Position numbers and translations under genes: made by a program
Notes under the pieces: generated by a model
Databases searched by the model: none
Seen by the model: only the letters and a program-made list of their open reading frames with translations
What the model was told of the DNA's origin: nothing
DNA from: Minisyncoccota bacterium
GTDB lineage: Bacteria; Patescibacteriota; Minisyncoccia; Phycocordibacterales; UBA9973
Direction of reading: 5' to 3'
Assembly: GCA_041661005.1 (NCBI GenBank)
Contig: JBAZVG010000001.1
Location: forward strand, 735,515 to 799,514
DNA: 64,000 nt
Shown: piece after piece, positions 27,871 through 48,156 of the stretch
Layout: each line of letters begins with the position of its first letter
How positions within the stretch are numbered: the stretch's first letter is position 1

Positions 27871-28856
<986 letters not shown>

Positions 28857-28873
<17 letters not shown>

Positions 28874-29834
28874 AAAAAGAGCGTTAGTGTGTGGTGCCGG
28901 TGGTTTTATCGGCAGTCACTTAGTCAAAAGATTAAAAAAAGAGGGATATTGGGTGCGTGGAGTTGATTTAAAAAATCCGGATTTTAGTCCGACCGAAGCT
29001 GACGAATTTGTTATTGGCGATTTGCGGGATCAGGCAGTATGTAGGAAAGTTCTTGATCAATCATTTGAAGAAGTATACCAATTGGCCGCTGATATGGGTG
29101 GCGCAGGATACATTTTTACCGGAGAACATGATGCAGATGTTATGCACAATTCGGCAACTATAAATTTAAACATTGTAGACCTAGCTCATAAAAATAAAGT
29201 TGGTAAAATATTCTATTCTTCATCTGCTTGTATATATCCAGCTTATAATCAAGAAGATCCGAACAATCCGAAATGTTCCGAAGATTCTGCATATCCAGCT
29301 GCACCAGATTCAGAATATGGTTGGGAAAAGCTTTTTAGCGAACGTCTTTATCTTAGTTATTTTCGTAACTATGGTTTACAAGTGCGAATAGCTCGATTTC
29401 ATAATATTTTTGGTCCCGAAGGGACATGGAAGGGCGGTAAAGAAAAGGCTCCCGCCGCTATTTGTCGAAAAATAGCTGAAGCAAAAGAAGAAGATGAAAT
29501 TGAGATTTGGGGTGATGGTGAACAAACCAGATCTTTTCTTTATATTGATGAGTGTGTTGAGGGCGTTAGACGTCTTATGGATTCTGATTTTACTGGTCCT
29601 GTAAACATTGGTTCTGATGAAATGGTTACAATTAATCAATTGGCTGAGGTGGCAATGAGTGTGGCAAACAAAAAACTTTCAATAAAACATATTTCAGGCC
29701 CACTCGGAGTTAGGGGCAGGAATTCTGATAATGCTCTTATTAAACAAAAGTTAAATTGGGCTCCCAATGCACCGCTTACCGAAGGGATAGAGAAAACTTA
29801 TACCTGGATTGAAAAGCAGGTTGCGAAAAAATAA
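28857..29834 (+). CDS. GDP-mannose 3,5-epimerase (GME-like SDR)
   Basis: It is near-colinear with plant/bacterial GME: 'LAADMGG.G.I', 'FYSSSACIYP', 'YG.EKL', 'RIARFHNI.GP.GTWKGG.EKAPAA.CRK', 'WGDG.QTRSF..IDECVEG', 'NIGSDEMV', 'RGRNSDN'. Confidence 0.8.
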
Positions 29835-29939
29835 TTGTTTTTCATATTATTTTATGATATAAATAAGAAGCAATGAAAAAGGTTATAATCACCTCTGGAT
29901 TTTTTGGTTTTTAGCAAATGGCAAATAAGCTTAAAAAAT

Positions 29940-30701
29940 ATGAAAACAATTATACTTTGCGGGGGTATGGGTACTCGTATGAAAGAAGAAACTGAATTTA
30001 AGCCAAAACCAATGGTTTTGATAGGTGGCAAGCCGATTTTGTGGCACATAATGAAAATATACAGCCATTACGGGCATAACAATTTTGTTTTGGCTTTAGG
30101 ATATAAAGGGGATATGATTAAAAACTATTTTTTGGATCAAAGGGCTTTCCTTAATGATTTCACCATAAATGTTTTAAACGGAAAAACAGATTTTCATAAC
30201 AATGAGGGAGATGATTTTAATGTTACCTTAGCTGAAACTGGCCAGGAGTCAGAAACAGGAGAAAGGATATTGAAATTAAAAAAGTATATTACAGAGGATG
30301 AATTTATGGTGACTTTCGGAGATGGGGTTTCCGATATTGATATTAATAATCTTGTGGATTTTCATAGAAAACAAGGAACCGTCGGGACAATAAGCGGCTT
30401 CCACCCATATAGTAAATATGGATTAGTCAAGATAGATGAAAACAGCAACAAAGTTATTAATTTTGAACAAAAGCCAATTCTTTTTGATTATACAAGCGGA
30501 GGATTTATGATTTTTAATAAAAAGGCATTTGATTATTTTGATAATGGCCCCATGGAAAACGGATTGATAAAAATGGTTAAAGATGGTCAATTATCTATGT
30601 ATAAACACGAAGGGTTCTGGAAACCGATGGATACATACAGAGAAGTGGAGGAATTAAATAAGCTTTGGGAAGAAGACCCAAAGTGGAAAATATGGAAATA
30701 A
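29940..30701 (+). CDS. rfbF: glucose-1-phosphate cytidylyltransferase
   Basis: 'KTIILCGGMGTRMKEETEFKPKPMVLIGGKPILWHIMKIYSHYG' matches the RfbF/DdhA N-terminus. Confidence 0.8.
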   Translation: MKTIILCGGMGTRMKEETEFKPKPMVLIGGKPILWHIMKIYSHYGHNNFVLALGYKGDMIKNYFLDQRAFLNDFTINVLNGKTDFHNNEGDDFNVTLAETGQESETGERILKLKKYITEDEFMVTFGDGVSDIDINNLVDFHRKQGTVGTISGFHPYSKYGLVKIDENSNKVINFEQKPILFDYTSGGFMIFNKKAFDYFDNGPMENGLIKMVKDGQLSMYKHEGFWKPMDTYREVEELNKLWEEDPKWKIWK

Positions 30702-31627
30702 AAAGAAAAAAAATTTTAGTTACAGGAGGAGCTGGTTTCATTGGTTCCAATTTGGTTAATGAATTGATAAGGCGGGGCAATAAAGTTGTTGTAGTAGACG
30801 ACCTGTCTTCGGGTAGAAGAGAAAATATAAATAAAAAGGTTAAATTTTATAAAGTCGATGTCAGAAGTAAAAAAATTGTTGAAATATTTAAAAAGGAAAA
30901 ACCAAAAATAGTTTTTCATCTTGCTGCAAAGGCATTAGTTGAAGACGTTTTTAAAAACCCCCAAGAAGCGATTGATGTTAATGTTATGGGTACAGTAAAC
31001 GTTTTGGAAGCTTGCAGACAGCAAAAGGGCATAGAATCAATTATAGTAGCCTCTTCTGATAAAGCATATGGTAAGTCAAAAAATCTTCCCTATGCAGAGC
31101 ATTATTCTTTAATGGGGGATCATCCTTATGACGTCTCAAAAGCATCGGCTGATTTAATAGCTAAAACATATTTTTCAACATATGGTTTACCGGTTAAAAT
31201 TACAAGATTTTCAAATGTTTTCGGTCAAGGGGATTATTCTTTTTCAAGAATAATCCCGGCTATAATGGAAGCCGTAGCGAGAAATAAGATATTGCTTATA
31301 AGAAGCGATGGAAAAATGATTAGAGAATATACTCACGTTAAAGACATTGTGGAAGGTTGCATAAGGCTTGCCGAGCATAAAGAAAATTATGGCGAAGCTT
31401 TTAACTTTGGAAGCAAAAATATTTTTAGCGTTATAGAATTAGTTGAAAAATCAGGACACATTCTCGGGGCGAAAATCAATTGTAAAATATTAAACACGAC
31501 AAAAAATGAGATTCCCGAACAATACCTTGATTGGACCAAAGCAAAAACAATATTAAATTGGGAGCCAAAAATAAGTTTTGATCAAGGAATTAAAGAAACT
31601 TTTAACTGGTTTATAAATGAATTGTAA
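30692..31627 (+). CDS. NDP-sugar 4,6-dehydratase/epimerase (extended SDR; CDP-glucose 4,6-dehydratase-like)
   Basis: 'TGGAGFIGS', 'SSDKAYG' and YxxxK 'YDVSKAS' motifs are present. The start overlaps the rfbF stop. Confidence 0.6.
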   Translation: MEIKRKKILVTGGAGFIGSNLVNELIRRGNKVVVVDDLSSGRRENINKKVKFYKVDVRSKKIVEIFKKEKPKIVFHLAAKALVEDVFKNPQEAIDVNVMGTVNVLEACRQQKGIESIIVASSDKAYGKSKNLPYAEHYSLMGDHPYDVSKASADLIAKTYFSTYGLPVKITRFSNVFGQGDYSFSRIIPAIMEAVARNKILLIRSDGKMIREYTHVKDIVEGCIRLAEHKENYGEAFNFGSKNIFSVIELVEKSGHILGAKINCKILNTTKNEIPEQYLDWTKAKTILNWEPKISFDQGIKETFNWFINEL

Positions 31628-32834
31628 AAATTGTGAAAATGAATTAAAAGAATTTCTTTCTTTGGGGCAGATGCCTTTGATTAATTCTTTTTTAAAGGAA
31701 GAGGATATTGCAAAGGAAAAGAAATTCAATCTTAGCGTGGGGTTTTGCCCAAAATGTTTTTTAGTACAACTTATGGATATAATTCCGCCGGAAGAACTTT
31801 TTAGAGACTATATTTATTTTTCTTCCACCTCTCAATACTTTTTAGATCATTGTAAAGAAGTTGCTGATGACATGGTTAAAAGATTTAATCTTAATAAAGA
31901 CAGTTTGGTTTTGGAAATCGCCAGCAACGACGGAGCACAACTACAATATTTTAAAGAATTAGGAGTGTCCGTGTTGGGCGTTGACCCTGCAAAAAATATT
32001 GCAAAGGTTGCAAACGAAAAAGGAATAGAAACTATTACAGAATTTTTTAATTTTGATTTTGCTAAAAAGTTAAAAACGAAAAAAAAGATACAAGCAGATT
32101 TGATTTTTGGTGCCAATGTTTTAGCTCATGTGCCAGAAATTGTTGATTTTGTAAAAGGCGTAAAAGAAATTTTAAAACCAAAAGGCACTGCTGTTTTTGA
32201 ATTTCCTTATGTAAAAGGCTTGATGGATAATAAATTCGACACCATTTATCACGAGCATGTTTTTTATTATTCTTTATTGGCTTTGATAAATTTATTCAAA
32301 TCTGTGGATCTGGAAATTTATGATGTAAAGCTTACGCCAATGCAAGGCGGTTCGCTTATGATTTTTATCTCTAATTCTGGAGTTTTTCAAATAAGTGAGA
32401 ATATAGTAAATCTTAAAGCAGAAGAACTTAAAAGTGGATTTGATAAATTTGAAACCTACCAAAAAATGAATGAGAATATTCTAAAATTAAAAAATGAATT
32501 GATTAGTTTTTTAGAAAAAATTAAAAAAGACGGTAAAAAAATTGCAGCTTATTCAGCTCCAGCAAAAGGAAATATTTTATTAAATTATTTTGGGATTAAT
32601 GAAAATTATTTAGATTTTATTGTCGACAAGTCAAAAGCAAAGCAAGGTTTATATACACCAGGAACTCATTTGTTGGTATATCCTTTAGAGAAGATATATC
32701 AAGGAAAGCCAGACTATCTTTTGATTCTGTGTTGGAACATTACTCAAGAAGTAATGGATATGATAGAATTACAAGAATATAAGAATAAAGGAGGGAAGTT
32801 TATTACACCAATACCAAATATAAAAATATTATGA
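31617..32834 (+). CDS. NDP-hexose C-methyltransferase (TylC3/NovU-like; zinc-ribbon plus SAM-MT plus C-MT C-terminal domain)
   Basis: The N-terminal CxxC...CxxC ('CKNCENEL...CPKCFLV') is followed by SAM-binding 'LEIASNDG'. The C-terminal domain and the ~405-aa length are typical of sugar C-3/C-5 methyltransferases. Confidence 0.7.
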   Translation: MNCKNCENELKEFLSLGQMPLINSFLKEEDIAKEKKFNLSVGFCPKCFLVQLMDIIPPEELFRDYIYFSSTSQYFLDHCKEVADDMVKRFNLNKDSLVLEIASNDGAQLQYFKELGVSVLGVDPAKNIAKVANEKGIETITEFFNFDFAKKLKTKKKIQADLIFGANVLAHVPEIVDFVKGVKEILKPKGTAVFEFPYVKGLMDNKFDTIYHEHVFYYSLLALINLFKSVDLEIYDVKLTPMQGGSLMIFISNSGVFQISENIVNLKAEELKSGFDKFETYQKMNENILKLKNELISFLEKIKKDGKKIAAYSAPAKGNILLNYFGINENYLDFIVDKSKAKQGLYTPGTHLLVYPLEKIYQGKPDYLLILCWNITQEVMDMIELQEYKNKGGKFITPIPNIKIL

Positions 32835-33355
32835 TTTTTAAAGAAACAAAAATTAAAGATCTATATATAATTAAGCCTGAGTTGAAGATTGATGAAAGGG
32901 GAAATTTTGCAAGAACTTTTTGCAAGGAAGAATTGAAAAAACAAGGCTTGGTTTTTGATATTGTGCAGGCAAACCAATCATTGACAGTTAAAAAGGGAAC
33001 GATTAGGGGGATGCATTTTCAAAAAGAGTCTAAAGCAGAGGGGAAAATTGTTCAATGTTTAAAGGGGAAAATTTATGATGTGGCTGTTGATTTGAGAAAA
33101 AATTCTTTAACTTATGGGCAATGGGTAGCCGAGAAGTTAACAGAGGAAAATAAAAAAATGTTTTTTTTGCCAAAGGGATTTGCTCACGGCTTTCAAACTT
33201 TAAGTGGTGATTGCATTGTCCAATATTTTATGTCGGAATTCCATTTTCCAGAATATGGCTCTGGGGTAAGATACAATGACCCATTTTTAAATATAGCTTG
33301 GCCGATTAAAAACCCTAATCTTTCAGAAAAAGATAAGAATTGGCCTTTATTATAA
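32831..33355 (+). CDS. NDP-4-keto-6-deoxyhexose 3,5-epimerase (RmlC-like cupin)
   Basis: 'IKDLYIIKP....DERG.F.....K......G......Q.N.S....G..RG.HFQ' is the RmlC pattern. Confidence 0.7.
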   Translation: MIFKETKIKDLYIIKPELKIDERGNFARTFCKEELKKQGLVFDIVQANQSLTVKKGTIRGMHFQKESKAEGKIVQCLKGKIYDVAVDLRKNSLTYGQWVAEKLTEENKKMFFLPKGFAHGFQTLSGDCIVQYFMSEFHFPEYGSGVRYNDPFLNIAWPIKNPNLSEKDKNWPLL

Positions 33356-33369
33356 TTATGAGAAATAAA

Positions 33370-34431
33370 ATGATGAGCGAAATTAATATAATTGAACAAG
33401 ATTGGAAAGAAGTCATTTTAAATGTCGGCTCAAAAAGGCTGAAAAATTTTAGTAAAAAGACAATATTAATAACCGGGGCAAATGGCTTTATTGGCAGGTC
33501 TTTAGTTTATTTTTTTATATATTTAAATGAAAATTTTTCAACAAATATTAAACTTATTTTAATTGCTAAAGAAGCAAAATTTGATTCAAAGATAAGCAAT
33601 TTGATAAAAAACAAAAAATTAAAATTTATTAAACATGATATCTTAAAAAAAACTAGCATTAATGAAAAAATTGATTATGTTTTTCATTTGGCAGCTGTAA
33701 TTTCTCCTAAATTTAATTCAACAAACCCTGTGGAGGCTTTAAAAATAAATGTTATTGGAACGGAAAATATATTAGATGCTTTAAAAAATATAAAAATTAC
33801 CAAATTCTTATATTTTAGTAGTGCTGGAGTTTATGGTAATCCAGATAAAAAAAATATTCCTACTAAAGAAGAATTTAATGGAAATGTGTCTCCAGTTTCT
33901 TTTAGGTCTTGTTATGCTGAGGGCAAACGAGCTGGAGAAGCTTGCACTATGGCTTATTTTAGGCAATATAATCTTCCTATAAATATAGTGCGCCCAGCTC
34001 ATATGTATGGTCCATTAATGAGGCTTAATGAAGATGTTACTATAAATTATTTCTTAAACTGCGGTTTAGCAAAAAAAGATATTGTTTTGCAGACCAAAGG
34101 CCAAGATACAAGATCTTTTTGCTATATAACAGATGTTTTATCAATTGTTTTGTTAGTTTCTTTAATGGCAAAATCTGGAGAAATTTTTAATATTAGTAAT
34201 GAAAAAGCAGAAGTTAAAATAATAGATTTGGCTGAATTAATATGTAAAATTTTTGATAATAAAATTAAGGTTAAAATTCAAGAGAAAAGCAAGACAAATT
34301 TTTTTAAGTCGCCCATGACAAGAAATGTTCCCAGTATGGAAAAAGTTAAAAATGTTTTAAAATTTACTCCAAAAATTACTTTAAATGATGGATTAGTGAG
34401 AATAATTAATAATTTAAAATTAAATAAATAA
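33370..34431 (+). CDS. NAD(P)-dependent sugar epimerase/reductase (SDR)
   Basis: 'ILITGANGFIGRS' and a YxxxK motif ('YAEGKRAGE') are present. It is probably the 4-ketoreductase of the pathway. Confidence 0.6.
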   Translation: MMSEINIIEQDWKEVILNVGSKRLKNFSKKTILITGANGFIGRSLVYFFIYLNENFSTNIKLILIAKEAKFDSKISNLIKNKKLKFIKHDILKKTSINEKIDYVFHLAAVISPKFNSTNPVEALKINVIGTENILDALKNIKITKFLYFSSAGVYGNPDKKNIPTKEEFNGNVSPVSFRSCYAEGKRAGEACTMAYFRQYNLPINIVRPAHMYGPLMRLNEDVTINYFLNCGLAKKDIVLQTKGQDTRSFCYITDVLSIVLLVSLMAKSGEIFNISNEKAEVKIIDLAELICKIFDNKIKVKIQEKSKTNFFKSPMTRNVPSMEKVKNVLKFTPKITLNDGLVRIINNLKLNK

Positions 34432-34437
34432 AAATAA

Positions 34438-36033
34438 ATGATTGTTTTAGGACTACATAAAAATCCATGGCACGACACAGGAGCTTGCATTATATCTGAT
34501 AAAAGCGGTTCTTTTGAAGTGTGCTCTATAAGCGAAGAAAGGCTAAATAGAGAGAAAGATTCAAGAGTTTTCCCGGAAAGAGCCATAAAGGCTTGTATGG
34601 AAAAGCTGGATATTAAAAGTTATGCTGAAATTGATTTTGTGGTAATGGACTATATTGAAGATAAAGATTGGCGCAAAGACAACATTGAACATAAAGAAAG
34701 AATCCATGAAATTTTAAAAGAATTTCCTGAAGATAAAATAATTGTTATTAATCACCATTTGGCTCATGCCTCTGCGACATACTTTTCATCACCTTTTAAT
34801 AGCGCATCAGTTTTAGTGATAGATGGGAGAGGGTCGAATAAAGAAACTCAAAGCATTTTTATTGCCAAAGATAATCAAATAAAACCCTTGGAATCAACAA
34901 GTAAAATGGGAATTGGGCTGTTATATTCGACTGTAACTAGAAAGATTGGATTTAAGGTTTTAGAGGAAGGAAAAGTAATGGGACTGGCTCCGTATGGAAA
35001 GGAATATAATCGAAAGATTTTTAATTTTCCCGAAAGATTCAGTGGCATAGAAACTGACTTTGAAGATGTTATGGTTTTAGGCAAATATGAATTAACAAAG
35101 GAATATGATAAAAATATAGAAACACTTGAGGATAAAAAAGTAGCAGCCTTTGAAATCCAAGACTTGTGTGAAAAAGTATTTTTGCACTTGGCAAATTATG
35201 CTAAAAAAATAACCAATGAAGATTATTTATGTCTTTCTGGGGGAAGTTCTTTAAACTCAGTCTCAAATTACAAAGTATTAAAATCAGGGTTTTTTAAAGA
35301 TGTTTTTATTAATCCCGCAGCTTCAGATACAGGAATTCCGTTGGGGTGCGCGCTTTATGGTTACCATGTTTTAGGAAATAAACCTAAAACATATAAAGAG
35401 ATAAGCCCTTACTTGGGACCAGAATATACAATTAATGATATAAAAAAAGCTATTAAAGAATTTAGCGGTTATAAAATAGTACGCAAAGATGCAAAACCCG
35501 AGGCAGTTAAAATGCTTTTAGAAAATAAAATTATTTCAATATTTTGGGGAAGGTCTGAAACAGGTCCTAGGGCTTTGGGAAATAGATCCATTGTGATGAG
35601 TCCAATGATTGCTGAAAATAAAGATGTTTTAAACGCTAGAGTAAAACACAGAGAATCTTTTAGGCCTTTTGCTCCAGCAATATTAGTAGAACATTTGCAA
35701 GAATATTTTGATATACCAAGACCAGAGCCATATATGCTTACTGTTCCTATGGTTAAAGAAGATAAAAAAAAGTTAATTCCAGCTGCCACTCATTATGACG
35801 GCACAGGCAGAGTGCAAAGTGTTTCCAAAGAATTAAATAAAAATTTTTATGAATTAATTGAATTATTTTATAAAAAAACTAAAGTGCCTGTATTGATTAA
35901 TACGTCATTTAATGTGGCGGGAGAACCAATAGTTGAAAGCCCCAAAGATGCTATTAAGTGTTTTTTGGGAACTGATATTGATGCTTTATTATTTGAAAAT
36001 ATTTTATTGATAAAAAATAAACTTGCTAATTAA
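34438..36033 (+). CDS. carbamoyltransferase (NodU/CmcH/NovN family)
   Basis: The N-terminal 'ILGL...HD..A........E.ER..R.K' is present, along with 'INHHLAHASATYF' and 'LVIDGRGS'. The ~530-aa length fits the family. Confidence 0.8.
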   Translation: MIVLGLHKNPWHDTGACIISDKSGSFEVCSISEERLNREKDSRVFPERAIKACMEKLDIKSYAEIDFVVMDYIEDKDWRKDNIEHKERIHEILKEFPEDKIIVINHHLAHASATYFSSPFNSASVLVIDGRGSNKETQSIFIAKDNQIKPLESTSKMGIGLLYSTVTRKIGFKVLEEGKVMGLAPYGKEYNRKIFNFPERFSGIETDFEDVMVLGKYELTKEYDKNIETLEDKKVAAFEIQDLCEKVFLHLANYAKKITNEDYLCLSGGSSLNSVSNYKVLKSGFFKDVFINPAASDTGIPLGCALYGYHVLGNKPKTYKEISPYLGPEYTINDIKKAIKEFSGYKIVRKDAKPEAVKMLLENKIISIFWGRSETGPRALGNRSIVMSPMIAENKDVLNARVKHRESFRPFAPAILVEHLQEYFDIPRPEPYMLTVPMVKEDKKKLIPAATHYDGTGRVQSVSKELNKNFYELIELFYKKTKVPVLINTSFNVAGEPIVESPKDAIKCFLGTDIDALLFENILLIKNKLAN

Positions 36034-36634
36034 TATGGAAAAAAAATTGGATAAAATATTTTATTTTTACACTCGGCCAATATTTTTTTGGGCAAAAATT
36101 AAAACTCAGTTTTTTTATAAATTATTTTTTGGAAAAATTGGCAGTGGCACAATGATTGTTAAAGCTGATTTAATTTTAAATCCGTCAAATATTTTTATTG
36201 GTAAAAATACAGTTATTCATAGTAATGCTAGGATTTTATGTATTACAAAGCACCGTGGCGGGCAAAAATTTAATCCTAAAATTGATATTGGAGATGATGT
36301 AAAAATTCAGCAAGGATCTCATATTTCTTGCACCAATGAAATAACTATTGAAAGTGGTGTCTCTATTGCTCCGAATGTAAAAATACTAGATAGTGACCAC
36401 ATGTATACTAACACATCAACGCCTATTCATAATCAAAAACTTTCGATAGGTTCAATTTTTATTGGTGAAAATTCTTTGATTGGAGCAGGGGTGGTTATTT
36501 TAAAAGCTAAAATAGGTAAAAATTGCATAGTGGGAGCGAATGCAGTAGTTAAAGGAGATTTCCCTGATTACTGTATTATAGCTGGTGTGCCAGCTAAAAT
36601 TATTAAATATATAAATGAAGGAGCTAATAAGTAA
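36023..36634 (+). CDS. hexapeptide-repeat acyl/acetyltransferase (TTG start)
   Basis: It has left-handed beta-helix repeats '[LIV]G.N..IG.G..I' and a C-terminal 'IIAGVPAKIIK'. Confidence 0.7.
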   Translation: MLINMEKKLDKIFYFYTRPIFFWAKIKTQFFYKLFFGKIGSGTMIVKADLILNPSNIFIGKNTVIHSNARILCITKHRGGQKFNPKIDIGDDVKIQQGSHISCTNEITIESGVSIAPNVKILDSDHMYTNTSTPIHNQKLSIGSIFIGENSLIGAGVVILKAKIGKNCIVGANAVVKGDFPDYCIIAGVPAKIIKYINEGANK

Positions 36635-36638
36635 GATT

Positions 36639-38153
36639 ATGTCAAAACTCTCACGAAATATTATTTATAATTTACTTGGTCAAGGGTCATTATTGATAAT
36701 CAGTTTTTTGGCGGTTAAATATATTTTTCATCAATTAGGCGCCGAGGCCTTGGGCATAATATATTTTACAATAGCCATGAATACAATCTTGGCTGTGGCC
36801 CTTGAAATGGGAGTTTCTTCTGCTTTAGTTAGAGAAATTTCAAGCCATTTTGATTCTGATAAAGAATATATCAAGAAACTCATACATACTTTTTCATTTT
36901 TTTATTGGGGTATTTATTTAGTAGCTGCTTTGATAATTTTTTTTATGGCGCCATTTTTTGTTCAAAAATGGATTCATTTAAGCTCAATAAGTCCTGATCT
37001 TGCTATAAATATTATTAGAATTTTAGGTATTACATCTGTCACAACTTTATTAGTTTCTTTTTATTCTAGTTTAATACGTGGGTTGCAAAAGATGAAATTT
37101 AATAATTTAATTGATGTAGTTTCTGGCATATTGCAACAGGGCGGGGCTCTTTTGATTTTGATTTTAAATGGAAGTTTGATGTTGGTAATTTATTGGTTTG
37201 CTATAAGTTATATTTTAAAAGTATGTATTTATTTTCTAGTTTCTGGTTATTTATTTTCCTTTCCAGCTCTTACGCCCAAATTTTCAAGTGCAGTTATTAA
37301 AAGAAATTTTAAATTTATTTTAAACACAACTTTTATTTCTATTTTTTCCACTATTCATATCCAGGCAGATAAAATTTCTATTAGTAAGTTTTTACCTATT
37401 TCAACCTTAGGATATTACAGTTTAGCTTATACTGCTGTTTCGCAGGCCACTTTGCTTACTGATTCAGTTAGCATGGCAGCTTATCCTTCTTTTTCTTCTT
37501 TGGCAAAAGAAAAAGATAAAAATGAGTTAATGTCGCAGTATTACAAATTGCAAGATTTACTTTGTTTTGGTATTCTGCCAATATTTGCAGCTATTCCCTT
37601 TGCTCTGGTGCCGGTATTTTCTTTTCTTTTTAATGCTCAGATTGCTAACTTATTACTGTTGCCAACAACTTTCCTATGTTTGGGTATTTATATGAATGGA
37701 ACAGTAACAATACCTTATGTGTTTTCCCTTGCTGTTGGTAAACCAAATATTACTGCAAAGATGAATTTTTACGCTTTATTTATTGTTTTGCCTCCGTCGG
37801 TGATTTTAATTTATTTTTTTGGTTTGCCTGCTGCTGGTTTATATTTAGTGTTTTATCATATCTTTGCTTATTTTTATAGCATACCCAAAATATGTAAAGA
37901 ATGTTTGGGCATTAAAGTAAAAGATTGGTATTTTCATATTTTTAGAATTTTTATTCTTGCAATTTTAACTTATGGCACGTCTTGGTTTATTTTAGGAGTA
38001 ATCAACAACCATTCAATTTTTGCGTTAATTTTAGCTTATTTACTTTCCTCAGTTGTTTATTTATATTTTTCTTATTTTTTAATTACAAAAGAGCTTAAAA
38101 AAACACTTTTTTATTATGTGCAATTATTATTAAATATTAAAAAATCAAAATGA
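36639..38153 (+). CDS. oligosaccharide flippase (Wzx/MOP superfamily)
   Basis: It has ~12-14 TM helices and starts with the typical 'LSRNIIYNLLGQGSLLIISFLAVKYI'. Confidence 0.65.
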   Translation: MSKLSRNIIYNLLGQGSLLIISFLAVKYIFHQLGAEALGIIYFTIAMNTILAVALEMGVSSALVREISSHFDSDKEYIKKLIHTFSFFYWGIYLVAALIIFFMAPFFVQKWIHLSSISPDLAINIIRILGITSVTTLLVSFYSSLIRGLQKMKFNNLIDVVSGILQQGGALLILILNGSLMLVIYWFAISYILKVCIYFLVSGYLFSFPALTPKFSSAVIKRNFKFILNTTFISIFSTIHIQADKISISKFLPISTLGYYSLAYTAVSQATLLTDSVSMAAYPSFSSLAKEKDKNELMSQYYKLQDLLCFGILPIFAAIPFALVPVFSFLFNAQIANLLLLPTTFLCLGIYMNGTVTIPYVFSLAVGKPNITAKMNFYALFIVLPPSVILIYFFGLPAAGLYLVFYHIFAYFYSIPKICKECLGIKVKDWYFHIFRIFILAILTYGTSWFILGVINNHSIFALILAYLLSSVVYLYFSYFLITKELKKTLFYYVQLLLNIKKSK

Positions 38154-39310
38154 ACGAGAATCAAAATTCAAAGCCTTTAATTTCTTTAATTATCCCAACC
38201 CGAGAGCGAGCTGATACTCTGTTGTTTGCTATAAAAACTGCGCTGGATCAAGACAGTAATTCTTATGAGGTAATTATTAGTGATAACTTTAGTCAGGATA
38301 ACACAAAAGAAATTGTTCAAGGTTTTAATGATTCGCGTTTGGTTTATATTAACACTGGTAAGCGTTTATCAATGTGTGATAATTTTGAATTTGCTCTAAA
38401 CCATGCCAAAGGGGAATATACAATTTTTATTGGAGACGATGATGCCATTATGCCACATGCTATAGACAAATTGCAGAATACCATTAAAAATAAATCTGAT
38501 TATTCTGTATTTTGTTGGCACAAACCAATTTATCTTTGGCCAAAAGGCGGGCAGGATGCTTCTATTTGGATTTTACCTTTTAACACGCGATTATATGAAG
38601 TTGATTTAAAAAAGCGAGCAAAGTTTGTAATTAGCATGGGTGGAACTGGCTGCGGTCTTTTACCCTCAATATATCATTGCGCTGTTAAGAAATCTGTCTT
38701 AGAAAAAATAAAAAACCAGACTGGTCGGGTTTTTCATTCCACAACTCCAGATATTGGTACAGCTTTTGCTTTACCGGTTTTTTTAGATAAAGCTCTTAAC
38801 GTTGATTATTTAGTAACCATTACTGGTCAATCTCCTAAATCAAATAGCGTGACAACATACACAAAGGGTGATCAATTAAATACAAGAAAATTTCTTGAAG
38901 AATACAAAGGTTATAAAATTCATAAATCCTTATTCCCTGGGATAGATCCAGTGGCTAATTTAATGCCAGATACTATTTTAGTTGCAATGGATAAGTTTCC
39001 TAAATTCTATAGTGGCATGAAGTTTAATTATAATGCTATGTGGTCCAGGTTGCTTAAATCATCAAACGATTATAATTTAGGGCTTACTATTACTAAAATT
39101 ATTCAGAAAAGAAAACAAATAAATCAGTATCATAATTTTAACTCAATTAAGTTCTTGTTTTATTGTATTTTCTGGAAATTACCTGATTTGTATAGGCAGT
39201 TATCTCATAAAACTGTGGAACTGGGGCCTTTTGCAAAAAAAGTACCAGATAATATTAGTGACTTTGTTAAACAACTCGCTATTTATGAAAAATCGCGTAA
39301 AATAAAATAA
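38150..39310 (+). CDS. family 2 glycosyltransferase
   Basis: 'ISLIIPTRERADTL..AI.....Q.....EVIISDNFSQDNT' is the GT-A DxD-type N-terminus. Confidence 0.7.
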   Translation: MNENQNSKPLISLIIPTRERADTLLFAIKTALDQDSNSYEVIISDNFSQDNTKEIVQGFNDSRLVYINTGKRLSMCDNFEFALNHAKGEYTIFIGDDDAIMPHAIDKLQNTIKNKSDYSVFCWHKPIYLWPKGGQDASIWILPFNTRLYEVDLKKRAKFVISMGGTGCGLLPSIYHCAVKKSVLEKIKNQTGRVFHSTTPDIGTAFALPVFLDKALNVDYLVTITGQSPKSNSVTTYTKGDQLNTRKFLEEYKGYKIHKSLFPGIDPVANLMPDTILVAMDKFPKFYSGMKFNYNAMWSRLLKSSNDYNLGLTITKIIQKRKQINQYHNFNSIKFLFYCIFWKLPDLYRQLSHKTVELGPFAKKVPDNISDFVKQLAIYEKSRKIK

Positions 39311-39325
39311 AGTAATATAAAAAAT

Positions 39326-40240
39326 ATGAATGTTAAAAATAAAAGAATTTTAGTAACTGGAGGAGCTGGGTTTATTGGATCACATGTTACAGATGCGCTT
39401 ATTAAAGCTGGAGCTATTGTAAGTATAATTGATAATTTGTCTACTGGCAGGAAAGAAAACATAAATCCAAATGCTACATTTTATGAAATAAATATTGCTG
39501 ACTTAAAAATTAAAGATATTTTTGAAAAAGAAAATTTCGAGATAATTTATCATTTTGCTTTTAATGTTTTAGTTCCTAAATCGGTTGAAAATCCTTTAAT
39601 TGATATGGACAGTATTGCGGGGTCTCTTAATGTTTTGATTAATGCGCAAAAATATGGAGCAAAGAAAATTATTTTTTCTTCTTCGGGTTTTATATATGGC
39701 AATACACAGAATTTACCAGCCAAAGAATCAGAACCAGTTGATCCAATTTCTCCGTATGTTGTTTCAAAATATGCAGTTGAAAATTATTTAAAATTCTTTA
39801 ATAAAGCCTATAATTTGCCTTATGTAGTTTTTAGAAATGCAGCGGTTTATGGTCCAAGGCAAATAACAGGAGCAATGGCAGATTATATCAGAAAATTAAA
39901 GGCAGACAAGCAAGCTGACATTTGGGGAGATGGAAACAAGACAAGGGATTATGTTTTTATTGATGATGTTGTAAATGCCAATATTTTAGCTCTGGATTTA
40001 CCAGATGATTTTTCAGATCCAGTTTTTAATTTAGGAAGTGGCAAAGAAACAACTTTAAATGATTTATACAAAGGCATTGCTAAACTGCTGGGCAAAGAGG
40101 CAAAACCCATTTATCATCCCGAAAGGCCAGGAGAGCAAATTAGATATTGTCTTGACAATTCAAAGGCAAAAAGAGAACTTGGATGGAAGATTAAATATAA
40201 TCTAGATGAAGGATTAAAAATTTTAATATCTAAACAATGA
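39326..40240 (+). CDS. NAD-dependent sugar epimerase/dehydratase (SDR)
   Basis: '[13 protein letters not shown]' and YxxxK 'YVVSKYAVE' motifs are present. Confidence 0.7.
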   Translation: MNVKNKRILVTGGAGFIGSHVTDALIKAGAIVSIIDNLSTGRKENINPNATFYEINIADLKIKDIFEKENFEIIYHFAFNVLVPKSVENPLIDMDSIAGSLNVLINAQKYGAKKIIFSSSGFIYGNTQNLPAKESEPVDPISPYVVSKYAVENYLKFFNKAYNLPYVVFRNAAVYGPRQITGAMADYIRKLKADKQADIWGDGNKTRDYVFIDDVVNANILALDLPDDFSDPVFNLGSGKETTLNDLYKGIAKLLGKEAKPIYHPERPGEQIRYCLDNSKAKRELGWKIKYNLDEGLKILISKQ

Positions 40241-41079
40241 AGAAATTATTTTTTAACGCGTATAGAATATTTTTGATTGGTATGTCTTTGCCTATTATTT
40301 TATCTGGTTTTTTTAATAAAAGAACTGGTCAAGAATATGGGATTACATTTTTTAGCAAAATTCGTCTTCTCCTACAGATGGTGAGAAATAACTTTAAAAT
40401 AAAGACGGCATCACGATTTGTAGAACATATTTTAATGGCTGAGGCGATATTTAGAGTTCCTAAATCTGTTGAAGGAGCCGTAGTTGAGGCAGGTGTTTTT
40501 AAAGGGGGAAGCGCAGCAAATTTATCATTAGCATGTGCAATGTGCTCCAGAGAGTTGCTACTCTTTGATTCGTTTAAGGGTCTTCCTGAGCCAGATTTGA
40601 AAGACAAAAAGCATATAATTTTAAGTAATAAAGAAACGCACGCCTACCAGAAGGGTGCTTGGACCGGAACATTGAGCGAAGTCAAGAAAAATATTTCTAA
40701 CTATGGGAATATAAATGTCTGTAAATTCTATGAAGGATTTTTTGATCAGACTCTGCCCTTGTTTGAAGATGATGTAATTTTAGTTTTTTCTGACGCAGAC
40801 CTTAAAAAATCCACTGAAACGTGCTTGAAATATTTGTGGCCATTGTTGAATGATAACGGACTGTTTTTTATACATGAGGCGGCTCACAATGATTTGGTTT
40901 CTTTATTCTTTGATAAATTATGGTGGAGAGATAATTTAAATTCAGAGGTGCCATGTTTGATAGGGGCGGGCAACGGGTTAGGTTTGTATCCTAGCGACGG
41001 AGGATACAAAAGCAGTCTAGCTTACACAATAAAGAATCCAGATGTTTCTAAATTCAAGGAGATGCCGCCTGAAGTATGA
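40237..41079 (+). CDS. TylF/MycF/NovP-family sugar O-methyltransferase
   Basis: 'GAVVEAGVFKGGSAANLSLA' and 'LLLFDSFKGLPEPD....DADL..ST...L' match the macrocin-O-methyltransferase fold. Confidence 0.65.
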   Translation: MKKLFFNAYRIFLIGMSLPIILSGFFNKRTGQEYGITFFSKIRLLLQMVRNNFKIKTASRFVEHILMAEAIFRVPKSVEGAVVEAGVFKGGSAANLSLACAMCSRELLLFDSFKGLPEPDLKDKKHIILSNKETHAYQKGAWTGTLSEVKKNISNYGNINVCKFYEGFFDQTLPLFEDDVILVFSDADLKKSTETCLKYLWPLLNDNGLFFIHEAAHNDLVSLFFDKLWWRDNLNSEVPCLIGAGNGLGLYPSDGGYKSSLAYTIKNPDVSKFKEMPPEV

Positions 41080-45865: not shown

Positions 45866-45930
45866 GCCTTTATGATACTTTTTTAAAGACGAAAAAACAA
45901 GTTGATATTTTTTATGTTTTTTGTGCTAGA

Positions 45931-47208: not shown

Positions 47209-47220
47209 TTTAGGTATAAC

Positions 47221-47305: not shown

Positions 47306-47332
47306 TCAATTAATTTCTTTATTTTAAATTAT

Positions 47333-48152: not shown

Positions 48153-48156
48153 ACTA

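What the first reader, a model, noticed from the sequence alone, without database searches (positions are those of the whole stretch)
29940..41079. Noviose-like, heavily tailored NDP-deoxyhexose pathway embedded in a surface-glycan locus
The block is near-colinear with the pathway order: rfbF-type cytidylyltransferase, a 4,6-dehydratase-like SDR, a TylC3/NovU-type sugar C-methyltransferase, an RmlC-type 3,5-epimerase, an SDR reductase, a NodU/NovN-type carbamoyltransferase, a hexapeptide acetyltransferase and a TylF/NovP-type O-methyltransferase. That enzyme set reproduces the logic of L-noviose biosynthesis and tailoring in aminocoumarin antibiotics, namely 4,6-dehydration, 3,5-epimerisation, C-methylation, 4-ketoreduction, O-carbamoylation and O-methylation. 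Here it is wired to a flippase, GTs, a Wzy-like polymerase and the priming phosphotransferase. That points to a cell-envelope polymer rather than a secondary metabolite. A C-methylated, O-methylated, O-carbamoylated and possibly O-acetylated deoxysugar in a cell-surface glycan of a putative CPR-type bacterium would be unusual. The chemical identity of the sugar is an inference from the domain families.
Basis: partly seen in the sequence, partly recalled or inferred. Interest (0 to 1): 0.85.

Follow-up and report, generated by a model that had tools for sequence, protein, structure and literature searches.

The report
CDP-linked C-methyl, carbamoylated deoxysugar glycan locus
A candidate-phyla-radiation bacterium carries an intact surface-glycan gene cluster predicted to build a branched (C-methylated), carbamoylated 6-deoxysugar; the same core gene set also occurs in several other phyla, so it is an uncharacterised but widespread sugar pathway, not a one-off oddity.

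Summary
Window 29940-41079 is a gap-free, same-strand run of intact genes whose family assignments all hold. They are a glucose-1-phosphate cytidylyltransferase (PDB 1tzf, E 1e-63), a CDP-glucose-4,6-dehydratase-type SDR, a TylC3/TcaB9-type sugar C-methyltransferase (MtmC, E 8e-80), RmlC, an SDR, an O-carbamoyltransferase (NovN/GdmN/TobZ relatives, E 1e-71 to 1e-75), a hexapeptide acetyltransferase and a TylF-family methyltransferase. A flippase, a GT2 and a GalE-like epimerase sit among them. A GT4, two Wzy_C proteins and a priming phosphotransferase flank the block. The host is a Candidatus Paceibacterota (CPR) bacterium.

The enzyme logic matches noviose, but activation is by CDP rather than dTDP, and C3 versus C5 methylation cannot be decided. 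The TylF-like and acetyltransferase targets are also unproven. The pathway is not rare. The C-methyltransferase core is very common in Parcubacteria glycan loci. This carbamoyltransferase subfamily sits beside the same cytidylyltransferase/dehydratase/C-methyltransferase/RmlC module in 8 of 12 loci from several phyla, one next to flagellin genes in Paenibacillus. None of 73 loci with distant carbamoyltransferases has that module.

Verdict: a new variant of a known kind, of moderate interest.

The parts
25756..27870 (+). 704-aa membrane protein with a Wzy_C (O-antigen ligase/polymerase family) domain. It is the first gene of the tightly packed + strand block.
   Evidence: Pfam PF04932, 50.5 bits. 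There is 0 nt to the next gene.
27871..28873 (+). galE (UDP-glucose 4-epimerase) split by a frameshift in an A8 tract at 28047-28054.
   Evidence: The C-terminal 258 aa match TIGR01179 positions 74-331 with 264.8 bits. The N-terminal 71 aa form a separate ORF.
28857..29834 (+). GDP-mannose 3,5-epimerase homologue. It probably supplies a second, L-series sugar to the same glycan.
   Evidence: PDB 2c59 (Arabidopsis GME), E 4e-103 over residues 9-324.
29940..30701 (+). Glucose-1-phosphate cytidylyltransferase (RfbF/DdhA type).
   Evidence: PDB 1tzf, E 1e-63, full length; the next best hit is 5.5e-16. TIGR02623, 271 bits, covering profile positions 1-255 of 255.
30692..31627 (+). Short (about 311-320 aa) extended SDR, a probable CDP-glucose 4,6-dehydratase.
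   Evidence: The best NCBIfam hit is TIGR02622, 196 bits, below its cut-off. D132-K133-x-Y135 and Y155xxxK159 are invariant with L008's RfbG, which matches 1wvg and 1rkx at E 1e-119. Orthologues at 61-63% identity sit next to rfbF in L002 and L004.
31617..32834 (+). NDP-hexose C-methyltransferase (TylC3/TcaB9/MtmC family).
   Evidence: Methyltransf_13 (67.5 bits) plus Methyltransf_14 (168.3 bits). PDB MtmC 4rv9 at 7.7e-80, KijD1 at 4.9e-70 and TcaB9 at 2.8e-67, all full length. The CxxC...CxxC and YHEH motifs are kept.
32831..33355 (+). RmlC-type NDP-4-keto-6-deoxyhexose 3,5-epimerase.
   Evidence: TIGR01221, 193 bits against a cut-off of 155.75. PDB 1ep0, E 8e-51. The residues aligned to His, Lys73 and Tyr133 of 1ep0 are conserved.
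33358..34431 (+). Extended SDR, the probable 4-ketoreductase (assigned by position).
   Evidence: It has the Epimerase/GDP_Man_Dehyd fold. Its nearest solved relatives are UDP-glucuronate decarboxylases, but the dehydratase/decarboxylase Glu is missing (SSAGVYG) and YxxxK is kept. It is 55% identical to the SDR that directly precedes the carbamoyltransferase in L007 and L091.
34438..36033 (+). O-carbamoyltransferase (NodU/CmcH/NovN/TobZ family).
   Evidence: Carbam_trans_C (215.6 bits) plus Carbam_trans_N (122.6 bits). PDB 7xb6 at 1.6e-75, GdmN at 5.6e-73, NovN 9s2t at 1.3e-71 and TobZ at 3e-49. The subfamily is linked to the C-methyltransferase module.
36035..36634 (+). Hexapeptide-repeat O-acetyltransferase (WbbJ-like).
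   Evidence: Pfam Hexapep. NF007240 WbbJ, 87 bits, below its cut-off. A hexapeptide gene also precedes the carbamoyltransferase in L090.
36615..38153 (+). MOP-family (Wzx-type) flippase.
   Evidence: Polysacc_synt (59.8 bits) and Polysacc_synt_3 (52.9 bits).
38150..39310 (+). GT2 glycosyltransferase, a candidate transferase for the C-methyl sugar.
   Evidence: PF00535, 79.9 bits. It is 57% identical to the GT2 domain encoded just downstream of the C-methyltransferase and its reductase in L004 and L005.
39326..40240 (+). GalE-type UDP-hexose 4-epimerase.
   Evidence: PDB 4zrm (Thermotoga UDP-glucose 4-epimerase), E 2.1e-75.
40237..41079 (+). Divergent TylF-family O-methyltransferase with a hydrophobic N-terminus.
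   Evidence: PF05711, 60.8 bits against a cut-off of 23. PDB 5i10 at 4.5e-9, MycF at 2.8e-8 and NovP at 4.6e-7. The DxD motif is kept. It is only 25% identical to the TylF genes of related cassettes.
41076..42347 (+). GT4 glycosyltransferase.
   Evidence: Glycos_transf_1, 102 bits.
42344..44554 (+). Fusion of a Wzy_C membrane domain with a WecG/TagA-family glycosyltransferase.
   Evidence: PF04932 (residues 229-401) plus PF03808 (residues 548-716, 207.6 bits). TIGR00696, 158.8 bits.
44555..45865 (-). Polyprenyl-phosphate glycosylphosphotransferase (the priming enzyme), convergent with the block.
   Evidence: Bac_transf, 222.6 bits. TIGR03025, 318.5 bits against a cut-off of 295.55.

Best explanation
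The block is the nucleotide-sugar and tailoring core of a Wzx/Wzy-type envelope-glycan locus in a Candidatus Paceibacterota (CPR) bacterium.

Proposed pathway:
1. Glucose-1-phosphate plus CTP gives CDP-glucose (cytidylyltransferase).
2. CDP-glucose gives CDP-4-keto-6-deoxy-D-glucose (SDR with the CDP-type Asp-Lys dehydratase motif).
3. SAM-dependent C-methylation occurs next to the 4-keto group (TylC3/TcaB9-family enzyme). C3 is the more likely position.
4. The RmlC-type enzyme epimerises the sugar to the L-series.
5. The adjacent SDR reduces the 4-keto group, giving a CDP-6-deoxy-C-methyl-L-hexose.

An ATP- and carbamoyl-phosphate-dependent O-carbamoyltransferase then decorates this sugar, either as the CDP-sugar or after transfer to the lipid-linked oligosaccharide on the cytoplasmic face. 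A hexapeptide O-acetyltransferase and a TylF-family O-methyltransferase add further groups, to this sugar or to a neighbouring one.

The repeat unit is started by the Bac_transf phosphotransferase and extended by the GT2, GT4 and WecG/TagA-type transferases. Other sugars come from the GalE-type epimerases and the GDP-mannose 3,5-epimerase homologue. The unit is flipped by the MOP flippase and then polymerised or ligated by the Wzy_C proteins.

Shown here: the enzyme families, the conserved catalytic motifs, the gene packing, and the recurrent linkage of the same genes in other genomes. Inferred: substrate identities, order of steps, regiochemistry and stereochemistry, and which residue each tailoring enzyme modifies.
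For: CDP activation:
- 1tzf matches at E 1e-63, against 5.5e-16 or weaker for other nucleotidyltransferases.
- The SDKxY Asp-Lys motif is shared with 1wvg and 1rkx.

C-methyltransferase: the zinc-binding Cys pairs and the YHEH motif are conserved against MtmC and KijD1.

RmlC: the residues aligned to the His, Lys and Tyr of 1ep0 are present.

The other two SDRs in the block are accounted for as a GalE-type epimerase and a GDP-mannose 3,5-epimerase homologue. That leaves the SDR at 33358-34431 as the only reductase candidate.

Packing: overlaps or gaps of 15 nt or less from 25756 to 44554, except one 105-nt gap.

Module conservation:
- A cytidylyltransferase homologue (40-67% identical), an SDR and the C-methyltransferase, with or without RmlC, recur in CPR loci L002, L004 and L007.
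- The same set recurs in Paenibacillus, Pyrinomonadaceae, Bacteroidia and two further metagenomic loci.

The close carbamoyltransferase subfamily (53% identity or more) lies within 10 kb of a C-methyltransferase in 8 of 12 distinct loci. The figure is 0 of 73 for loci with distant carbamoyltransferases (Fisher p 1e-8).

The SDR-carbamoyltransferase gene pair is conserved in L007 and L091.
Against: - No biochemical or expression data exist.
- The cytidylyltransferase and dehydratase both score below NCBIfam's equivalog cut-offs (271 against 300.25; 196 against 278.45).
- The dehydratase is a short form, only 32-34% identical to canonical RfbG.
- The reductase is not orthologous to the reductases at the same slot in other loci. 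Its role rests on position alone.
- The window shows no source of carbamoyl phosphate, and CPR genomes are metabolically reduced (my own knowledge).
- Characterised O-carbamoyltransferases (NovN, TobZ, NodU) act on assembled acceptors, not NDP-sugars (my own knowledge). The modified residue could therefore be another sugar.
- The window's TylF-like gene is not orthologous to the TylF genes of the related cassettes.
Confidence: 0.62

Rival explanations
1. True noviose chemistry. The C-methyltransferase methylates C5, as NovU does, giving a 5,5-gem-dimethyl L-lyxo sugar. This sugar is then O-carbamoylated and O-methylated exactly as in aminocoumarins, but on a CDP carrier.
For: The gene content (dehydratase, RmlC-like epimerase, C-methyltransferase, ketoreductase, NovN-family carbamoyltransferase, NovP/TylF-family methyltransferase) is the same as for noviose. 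NovN (9s2t, E 1.3e-71) and NovP (2wk1, E 4.6e-7) are among the solved relatives. Identity to the solved C3 enzymes is only 33-37%, lower than the 40% between MtmC and KijD1. A different regiochemistry is therefore not excluded.
Against: All solved relatives of the C-methyltransferase are C3 enzymes. The RmlC here is much closer to bona fide 3,5-epimerases (E 8e-51) than to NovW (E 2e-25). No NovU, CloU or CouU sequence was available to me for a phylogeny.
Confidence: 0.15
2. The C-methyl sugar is made as proposed, but the carbamoyl, acetyl and/or O-methyl groups go onto other residues of the repeat unit (hexoses, ManNAc-type or L-galactose-type sugars). No single heavily tailored sugar exists.
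For: The locus supplies other sugars: two GalE-type genes, a GDP-mannose 3,5-epimerase homologue and a WecG/TagA transferase. The TylF-like gene is separated from the sugar genes by the flippase, GT2 and GalE-like genes, and is only 25% identical to cassette TylF genes. Some close carbamoyltransferases occur without any C-methyltransferase nearby, as in L009/L011 and L015.
Against: Subfamily-specific linkage of the carbamoyltransferase to the C-methyltransferase/RmlC module holds in 8 of 12 loci against 0 of 73. It is directly adjacent to the reductase here and in L007 and L091.
Confidence: 0.3
3. The product is not a free cell-wall polymer. It is a protein-linked glycan on an S-layer protein, pilin or other surface protein. 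One of the two Wzy_C (O-antigen-ligase family) proteins would act as an O-oligosaccharyltransferase.
For: Pfam Wzy_C is the O-antigen ligase family, and two large Wzy_C proteins are present. No chain-length regulator (Wzz) domain was found in any ORF scanned. In Paenibacillus the homologous cassette lies next to flagellin and an MptE/Maf-like gene, which is a protein-glycosylation context.
Against: No acceptor protein gene was identified in the window. Wzy_C domains also occur in true polymerases. This reading changes the destination of the glycan and not the sugar pathway.
Confidence: 0.3
4. The pathway runs on dTDP or another nucleotide and not on CDP, as automated annotation of the RmlC gene as 'dTDP-4-dehydrorhamnose 3,5-epimerase' would imply.
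For: RmlC passes the dTDP equivalog cut-off. The dehydratase scores almost equally for TIGR01181 dTDP-glucose dehydratase (190 bits) and TIGR02622 (196 bits). L006 pairs a similar C-methyltransferase with an unrelated nucleotidyltransferase, 21% identical.
Against: The only nucleotidyltransferase in the locus matches the solved glucose-1-phosphate cytidylyltransferase at E 1e-63 and RmlA models only at about 40 bits. The dehydratase has Asp-Lys (CDP type), not the Asp-Glu seen in the aligned dTDP-glucose dehydratase 6bi4 (STDEVYG against SSDKAYG).
Confidence: 0.08

Closest known systems
L-noviose biosynthesis and tailoring in aminocoumarins (NovV/T/W/U/S, NovN, NovP)
   Same: It has the same enzyme families and the same logic: 4,6-dehydration, RmlC-type epimerisation, SAM C-methylation, 4-ketoreduction, O-carbamoylation and TylF-type O-methylation. 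NovN and NovP are recovered as solved relatives.
   Different: Activation here is by a cytidylyltransferase, not a thymidylyltransferase. C5 regiochemistry is unproven. There is no GT1 or aglycone machinery. The product goes to a Wzx/Wzy-type glycan. An acetyltransferase is added.
C3-branched deoxysugar pathways (L-mycarose TylC3/TylK/TylC2; MtmC, TcaB9, KijD1)
   Same: The C-methyltransferase is a full-length homologue of the solved C3 enzymes with the same three-domain layout and conserved motifs. The gene order C-methyltransferase, then epimerase, then reductase mirrors the order of the mycarose steps (my own knowledge).
   Different: No 2- or 3-deoxygenation or amination genes are present. 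The carrier is CDP. Identity to the solved enzymes is only 33-37%.
Virenose (6-deoxy-3-C-methyl-gulose) in Coxiella burnetii LPS, with the TylCIII homologue CBU_0691
   Same: It is a C-methylated 6-deoxyhexose made by a TylC3-family enzyme and placed in a surface glycan (PMC3539893).
   Different: The virenose pathway is proposed to run on GDP or dTDP. No carbamoylation is involved. The organism is a diderm proteobacterium.
CDP-vinelose (CDP-6-deoxy-3-C-methyl-2-O-methyl-L-talose) of Azotobacter vinelandii (recalled from the 1960s literature; not found in the searchable library)
   Same: It is a CDP-activated, C-methylated, O-methylated 6-deoxy-L-hexose. This is exactly the core predicted here before carbamoylation.
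   Different: To my knowledge no genes are assigned to vinelose, so no sequence comparison was possible. No carbamoyl or acetyl groups have been reported.
O-carbamoylation of surface glycans (WapO on LPS core heptose in Pseudomonas; NodU/NolO on Nod factors)
   Same: A NodU-family carbamoyltransferase decorates a glycan destined for the cell surface or for export (PMC8005017; NF041651 NodU partial match).
   Different: It is a different subfamily (NodU model 132 bits against a cut-off of 1000). The predicted acceptor is a branched deoxysugar, not heptose or GlcNAc.
CDP-3,6-dideoxyhexose pathways of Salmonella and Yersinia (RfbF/RfbG/RfbH/RfbI)
   Same: The first two steps use homologous enzymes.
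   Different: There is no PLP-dependent E1/E3 3-deoxygenation. The pathway branches into C-methylation instead.

Membership tests
TylC3/TcaB9-type NDP-hexose C-methyltransferase | N-terminal four-Cys zinc domain (Methyltransf_13) | tested here: met
   PF08421, 67.5 bits against a cut-off of 31.3. C3, C6, C44 and C47 align with the Cys pairs of MtmC and KijD1.
TylC3/TcaB9-type NDP-hexose C-methyltransferase | Class I SAM-binding domain plus the C-terminal Methyltransf_14 domain, with a full-length match to solved members | tested here: met
   PF08484, 168.3 bits. MtmC at 7.7e-80 over residues 3-402, KijD1 at 4.9e-70 and TcaB9 at 2.8e-67.
TylC3/TcaB9-type NDP-hexose C-methyltransferase | Conserved Tyr-x-Glu-His active-site stretch | tested here: met
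   Query FDTIYHEH aligns with MtmC FDTIYHEH and KijD1 FDQIYDEH. The catalytic role of these residues is from my recollection of the TcaB9 literature.
TylC3/TcaB9-type NDP-hexose C-methyltransferase | Regiochemistry (C3 as in TylC3, or C5 as in NovU) | not testable with these tools
   No NovU, CloU or CouU sequence was obtainable. Identities to the C3 enzymes are 33-37%.
NodU/CmcH/TobZ O-carbamoyltransferases | Two-domain architecture of Carbam_trans_N (ASKHA/Kae1-like) plus Carbam_trans_C (YrdC-like) | tested here: met
   122.6 and 215.6 bits, both above their cut-offs. GdmN aligns over residues 11-524.
NodU/CmcH/TobZ O-carbamoyltransferases | Conserved HHxxH and DGRG metal-site motifs and the GPRALGxRS motif | tested here: met
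   H106, H107, H110, D129-G132 and G376-R383 are invariant in 12 subfamily members. The functional role is from my recollection of the TobZ structure.
NodU/CmcH/TobZ O-carbamoyltransferases | Distinct from the HypF and TsaD carbamoyl/threonylcarbamoyl enzymes | tested here: met
   TsaD scores only 21.3 bits (cut-off 24.8). There is no HypF hit. The top solved relatives are all O-carbamoyltransferases.
CDP-glucose pathway entry (RfbF + RfbG) | Glucose-1-phosphate cytidylyltransferase equivalog | tested here: inconclusive
   TIGR02623 gives 271.2 bits, below the cut-off of 300.25, although the match is full length. 1tzf matches at E 1e-63 and is separated from the other nucleotidyltransferases by 47 orders of magnitude.
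CDP-glucose pathway entry (RfbF + RfbG) | CDP-glucose 4,6-dehydratase with the Asp-Lys pair and YxxxK | tested here: inconclusive
   The motifs are present. TIGR02622 gives 196 bits against a cut-off of 278.45, and the protein is about 35 aa shorter than RfbG.
L-noviose pathway (aminocoumarin type) | dTDP activation by an RmlA-type thymidylyltransferase | tested here: not met
   The only nucleotidyltransferase is the cytidylyltransferase type. The rmlA_long model gives 39.8 bits against a cut-off of 320.
L-noviose pathway (aminocoumarin type) | Transfer to an aminocoumarin aglycone by a GT1 enzyme within a secondary-metabolite cluster | tested here: not met
   Only GT2, GT4 and WecG/TagA transferases were found, together with a flippase, Wzy_C proteins and a priming transferase. 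No aglycone genes are present.
L-noviose pathway (aminocoumarin type) | NovN-type carbamoyltransferase and NovP-type O-methyltransferase present | tested here: met
   NovN 9s2t at E 1.3e-71. NovP 2wk1 at E 4.6e-7 within Pfam TylF.
Wzx/Wzy-dependent glycan assembly locus | Polyprenyl-phosphate priming transferase, MOP flippase and a Wzy-type membrane protein | tested here: met
   TIGR03025 at 318.5 bits against a cut-off of 295.55. Polysacc_synt at 59.8 bits. Two Wzy_C domains at about 50 bits each. Polymerase and ligase roles are not distinguishable.
Wzx/Wzy-dependent glycan assembly locus | Chain-length regulator (Wzz/PCP) | tested here: not met
   No Wzz domain was found in any window ORF scanned.
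TylF/NovP/MycF sugar O-methyltransferases | Pfam TylF match above the gathering score, with metal-binding Asp residues | tested here: met
   PF05711 at 60.8 bits against a cut-off of 23, although it covers only profile positions 89-231 of 264. DSFxG and DxD align with 5i10.

The most novel reading that the evidence does not exclude
The cassette makes a monosaccharide that has not been described chemically: a CDP-activated 6-deoxy-L-hexose that is C-methylated, O-carbamoylated and O-methylated, and here possibly also O-acetylated. Bacteria of several phyla would display this 'noviose-like' sugar on envelope glycans and, in Paenibacillus, probably on flagellin. The phyla seen are Patescibacteria, Acidobacteriota, Bacteroidota and Bacillota. 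If so, the aminocoumarin noviose tailoring set (NovN/NovP-type enzymes) would have a widespread primary surface-glycan counterpart. The CPR version would give a first chemical handle on CPR cell-surface glycans.
Probability: 0.35. Interest if true: 0.6.

Novelty: new variant of a known kind. Interest (0 to 1): 0.45.

Why it matters
Almost nothing is known chemically about the cell surface of CPR/Patescibacteria, which live attached to host cells. The surface glycan is therefore a likely determinant of host and phage recognition.

This locus predicts a concrete and unusual residue: a branched, carbamoylated deoxysugar on a CDP carrier. All of the enzymes are soluble and could be expressed.

The finding that the carbamoyltransferase-bearing cassette is shared with cultivable bacteria, including a Paenibacillus strain where it sits in a flagellin-glycosylation context, makes the chemistry testable without culturing a CPR organism.

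The result also cautions against calling such clusters 'antibiotic-like'. The same enzyme families serve ordinary surface-glycan diversification.

Tried and rejected
- **Promoter and terminator scan** of 27500-47400. It found 69 promoter-like sites against 78.9 expected, and 20 terminator-like sites against 12.8 +/- 4.3. It is uninformative for operon structure.
- **Literature searches.** Queries for vinelose, TylC3 with O-antigen, 3-C-methyl with carbamoyl and glycan, carbamoyl with deoxyhexose and flagellin, and C-methyltransferase with carbamoyltransferase and polysaccharide gave nothing relevant. Only the virenose and WapO precedents were retrieved.
- **Genome-contig scan** with a carbamoyltransferase alignment. 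Only 7 close loci came back, but the distant ones served as a control set.
- **Metagenome-contig scan** with the single protein. It returned only 4 loci, two of them fragments, and was not useful.
- **C3 versus C5 by identity to solved enzymes.** Identities of 33-37%, against 40% between two C3 enzymes, do not discriminate. No NovU-type sequence was obtainable.
- **Other SDRs as the 4-ketoreductase.** I considered 39326-40240 and 28857-29834 and rejected both. They are close homologues of a UDP-glucose 4-epimerase and of GDP-mannose 3,5-epimerase respectively.
- **A secondary-metabolite cluster.** I considered and rejected this because no PKS, NRPS, GT1 or aglycone genes occur anywhere in the window.
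- **A source of carbamoyl phosphate in the window.** None was found.
- **Not run.** Structure prediction, fold search, the third homologue search and the representative-library search were judged unable to settle the open points (regiochemistry and acceptor identity).

Full report
**1. What is in the sequence**

Between 25756 and 44554 the + strand carries sixteen genes, counting the frameshifted galE as one. They either overlap or lie 15 nt or less apart; five of the overlaps are 4-nt ATGA junctions. The single larger gap is 105 nt, in front of the cytidylyltransferase ATG at 29940. The finding's limits (29940-41079) fall exactly on gene limits.

Proteins identical to the window's C-methyltransferase and carbamoyltransferase are on record. 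They lie on an 813 kb contig named Candidatus Paceibacterota bacterium. An assembly of run SRR18595301 is 100% identical over 17 kb. The window also holds a 23S rRNA with no adjacent 16S.

The promoter and terminator scan was no different from shuffled sequence. The case for one transcript therefore rests on packing alone.

**2. The sugar pathway genes**

- **29940-30701, cytidylyltransferase.** It matches the solved Salmonella glucose-1-phosphate cytidylyltransferase 1tzf over its whole length at E 1e-63. The next nucleotidyltransferase scores 5.5e-16. TIGR02623 aligns end to end with 271 bits, just under its cut-off of 300.
- **30692-31627, probable dehydratase.** This is a short extended SDR. 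Its best curated model is CDP-glucose 4,6-dehydratase (196 bits, below the cut-off), almost tied with dTDP-glucose dehydratase (190 bits).
  - Where the aligned dTDP-glucose dehydratase 6bi4 has STDEVYG and the epimerase 4zrm has SSTGGAIYG, this protein has SSDKAYG.
  - A canonical RfbG from the related Paenibacillus locus matches 1wvg and 1rkx at E 1e-119 and has TSDKCY at the same place.
  - In a five-sequence alignment, D132, K133, Y135 and the Y155xxxK159 motif are invariant.
  - I take this as good but not conclusive evidence for a CDP-type 4,6-dehydratase.
- **31617-32834, C-methyltransferase.** It has the three-domain layout of sugar C-methyltransferases: Methyltransf_13, a class I SAM domain, and Methyltransf_14.
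  - It aligns end to end with MtmC (7.7e-80), KijD1 (4.9e-70) and TcaB9 (2.8e-67).
  - It keeps both Cys pairs and the YHEH stretch.
- **32831-33355, epimerase.** It passes the RmlC equivalog cut-off (193 against 155.75). It keeps the residues aligned with the His, Lys73 and Tyr133 of 1ep0. It is far closer to true 3,5-epimerases (E 8e-51) than to NovW (E 2e-25) or EvaD-type enzymes (E 2e-17).
- **33358-34431, probable reductase.** This is an SDR whose nearest solved relatives are UDP-glucuronate decarboxylases. It lacks their Glu (SSAGVYG) and keeps YxxxK. I assign it as the 4-ketoreductase by elimination and position.
  - The other two SDRs of the locus are a close homologue of Thermotoga UDP-glucose 4-epimerase (39326-40240, E 2.1e-75) and of GDP-mannose 3,5-epimerase (28857-29834, E 4e-103).
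  - This SDR is 55% identical to the SDR that directly precedes the carbamoyltransferase in two other CPR loci.

**3. The tailoring genes**

- **34438-36033, carbamoyltransferase.** It has both carbamoyltransferase domains.
  - Its solved relatives are O-carbamoyltransferases of small molecules: 7xb6 at 1.6e-75, GdmN at 5.6e-73, NovN at 1.3e-71 and TobZ at 3e-49.
  - The TsaD match is sub-threshold.
  - The HHxxH, DGRG and GPRALGxRS motifs are invariant in twelve subfamily members.
- **36035-36634, acetyltransferase.** This is a hexapeptide acyltransferase closest to WbbJ-type O-acetyltransferases.
- **40237-41079, methyltransferase.** It passes the Pfam TylF threshold (60.8 against 23) over the catalytic core only.
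  - Its solved relatives are weak: 5i10 at 4.5e-9, MycF at 2.8e-8 and NovP at 4.6e-7, with the DxD motif kept.
  - It has a hydrophobic N-terminus.

**4. The assembly genes**

The assembly set comprises:
- a MOP flippase, a GT2 and a GT4;
- a fusion of a Wzy_C membrane domain with a WecG/TagA transferase;
- a second 704-aa Wzy_C protein;
- a convergent Bac_transf priming enzyme that passes TIGR03025.

No Wzz domain, and no PKS, NRPS, GT1 or aglycone gene, was found in any window ORF scanned. This is an envelope-glycan locus. Pfam Wzy_C is the O-antigen-ligase family, so 'polymerase' is only one reading. A ligase or an O-oligosaccharyltransferase is equally possible.

**5. Evidence from other genomes**

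*The C-methyltransferase is common in CPR.* It has more than 5000 relatives at E 1e-20 or better among the candidates scored. The best 120 clusters are 69-80% identical, and several are named Staskawiczbacteria or Parcubacteria.
- In two CPR loci (L002/L003, L004/L005) it sits in glycan clusters beside a homologous cytidylyltransferase (59-67% identical), the same short dehydratase (61-63%) and a small SDR, without RmlC.
- L006 has RmlC, but its nucleotidyltransferase is only 21% identical to this one.
- None of these three loci has a carbamoyltransferase.

The C-methyl deoxysugar core is therefore common in this group.

*The carbamoyltransferase belongs to a tight subfamily.* Members are 53-62% identical across phyla and 78-80% identical in three CPR contigs.

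*Loci that carry cytidylyltransferase, dehydratase, C-methyltransferase, RmlC, an SDR and the carbamoyltransferase:*
- a CPR genome (L007);
- Paenibacillus sp. LMG 31461 (L008);
- two Pyrinomonadaceae (L010, L013), although in L010 no reductase-type SDR was detected;
- a Bacteroidia MAG (L012);
- two further metagenomic contigs (L096, L097).

A CmcI-type methyltransferase is present in all seven. A methyltransferase of about 370 aa and a TylF gene are present in some of them.

*Statistics.* Counting distinct loci, 8 of 12 with a close carbamoyltransferase have a C-methyltransferase within the fetched flanks. None of 73 loci with distant (34-41%) carbamoyltransferases does (Fisher p 1e-8). This is the main support for the carbamoyl group going onto the C-methyl sugar.

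*Context in Paenibacillus.* There the cassette follows a flagellin gene and an MptE/Maf-like gene. This suggests use in flagellin glycosylation in that organism.

*The window's version is a variant.* It lacks the CmcI-type and 370-aa methyltransferases. It has instead a hexapeptide acetyltransferase and a divergent TylF gene.
- A hexapeptide gene also precedes the carbamoyltransferase in L090 (33.6% identical).
- The TylF gene is only 25% identical to the cassette TylF genes.

*The reductase slot varies.* It is filled by at least four unrelated SDR types across loci. The C4 configuration probably differs between them.

**6. Most likely mechanism**

1. Glc-1-P plus CTP gives CDP-glucose.
2. CDP-glucose gives CDP-4-keto-6-deoxy-D-glucose.
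3. C-methylation occurs next to the keto group.
4. Epimerisation converts the sugar to the L-series.
5. 4-keto reduction gives a CDP-6-deoxy-C-methyl-L-hexose.
6. The sugar is O-carbamoylated, either before or after transfer.
7. O-acetylation and O-methylation follow, on this residue or a neighbouring one.
8. The unit is assembled on a polyprenyl carrier, flipped, and then polymerised or ligated.

Families, motifs and linkage are shown. Substrates, order, regiochemistry, stereochemistry and acceptor residues are inferred.

If methylation is at C3, that carbon becomes quaternary. The RmlC enzyme could then act only at C5 once methylation has occurred, as in mycarose biosynthesis (my own knowledge). 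A fully decorated residue would have all hydroxyls occupied and would have to be terminal (inference).

**7. Comparison with known systems**

Membership in that pathway fails on two tested features. There is no thymidylyltransferase, and there is no GT1 or aglycone context.

The C-methyltransferase is 37% identical to MtmC and 33% to KijD1, while those two C3 enzymes share 40%. I could not obtain NovU-type sequences. C3 is therefore favoured only because all solved relatives are C3 enzymes.

The closest precedents in surface glycans are:
- virenose in Coxiella LPS, with the TylCIII homologue CBU_0691 (PMC3539893);
- O-carbamoylated core heptose in Pseudomonas, made by WapO (PMC8005017).

From memory, CDP-vinelose of Azotobacter (CDP-6-deoxy-3-C-methyl-2-O-methyl-L-talose) is the nearest chemical analogue of the uncarbamoylated core. 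The searchable library holds nothing on it. I found no paper describing a glycan residue that combines C-methyl, O-carbamoyl and O-methyl groups.

**8. Verdict**

The locus is a new variant of known kinds of pathway. It is made entirely of known enzyme families and belongs to a cassette that is widespread in genomes but seemingly uncharacterised chemically.

It does offer a concrete, testable prediction about CPR surface chemistry, and the shared cassette in Paenibacillus offers a cultivable route to test it.

Caveats:
- The window shows no carbamoyl-phosphate source.
- Two entry enzymes score below the equivalog cut-offs.
- The reductase assignment is positional.
- The methyltransferase and acetyltransferase targets are unknown.

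Noticed in passing
window 27871-28873: galE is split into a 71-aa ORF and a 258-aa ORF by a frameshift inside an A8 homopolymer (28047-28054). Read with a one-base shift in that run, it gives a normal GalE sequence (…[26 protein letters not shown]…). The Logan assembly of SRR18595301 shows the same sequence. It could be an assembly error, a pseudogene or slipped-strand phase variation of the glycan.
   Followed up: partly
window 28857-29834: The SDR immediately upstream of the finding is a close homologue of plant GDP-mannose 3,5-epimerase (PDB 2c59, E 4e-103), although NCBIfam ranks it only as a weak GDP-fucose-synthase match. It suggests GDP-L-galactose or GDP-L-gulose as a further building block of the same glycan. 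A 54% identical copy lies in the Staskawiczbacteria locus L002.
   Followed up: partly
window 42344-44554 and 25756-27870: There are two large Wzy_C (O-antigen ligase family) membrane proteins. One is fused at its C-terminus to a WecG/TagA-type glycosyltransferase. No Wzz was seen. One of the two may be a ligase or O-oligosaccharyltransferase and not a polymerase.
   Followed up: no
window 45802-47208 and 48847-49911: Adenosylhomocysteinase (TIGR00936, 594 bits) and SAM synthetase lie directly downstream of a locus that has two SAM-dependent methyltransferases. This may be coincidence or local provision of the methyl cycle. A RelB/YafQ-type toxin-antitoxin pair (47841-48417) sits between them.
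   Followed up: no
window 31617-40240: The centre of the locus is markedly AT-richer than the window mean of 0.37. Gene GC ranges from 0.255 to 0.328, with the reductase lowest at 0.255. This is typical of horizontally exchanged glycan cassettes.
   Followed up: partly
window 54600-56770: In a local scan the 23S rRNA match stops at model position 2639 (window 54796). Two sub-threshold group I intron matches follow (54897-55282, E 1e-8; 56037-56167, E 7.6e-6). They flank a LAGLIDADG endonuclease ORF (55516-55995), and the 5S gene follows at 56663. The 23S gene probably carries an intron with a homing endonuclease. No 16S gene is adjacent.
   Followed up: partly
window 781-4866: A 1361-aa class I aminoacyl-tRNA synthetase (tRNA-synt_1 plus Anticodon_1) has a histidine-phosphatase (His_Phos_1) domain inserted at residues 528-694 and an HD domain near the C-terminus. 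This is an unusual fusion.
   Followed up: no
L008 1-15954 (Paenibacillus sp. LMG 31461, GCA_013141695.1): The homologous cytidylyltransferase, RfbG, C-methyltransferase, RmlC, SDR, CmcI-methyltransferase, carbamoyltransferase and methyltransferase cassette lies directly after a flagellin gene and an MptE/Maf-like gene. This suggests flagellin glycosylation with this sugar in a cultivable organism.
   Followed up: partly
L090 451-2130; L004 12101-14026: Related CPR contigs show domain fusions: RmlC fused to a Methyltransf_21 domain, and GT2 fused to Methyltransf_21. These hint at channelling between epimerisation or transfer and methylation.
   Followed up: no
L007 16623-21584: The CPR locus most like the window's also carries a B12-binding radical SAM enzyme, DegT-type aminotransferases and a GFO/IDH oxidoreductase. 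That glycan would be even more heavily tailored.
   Followed up: no
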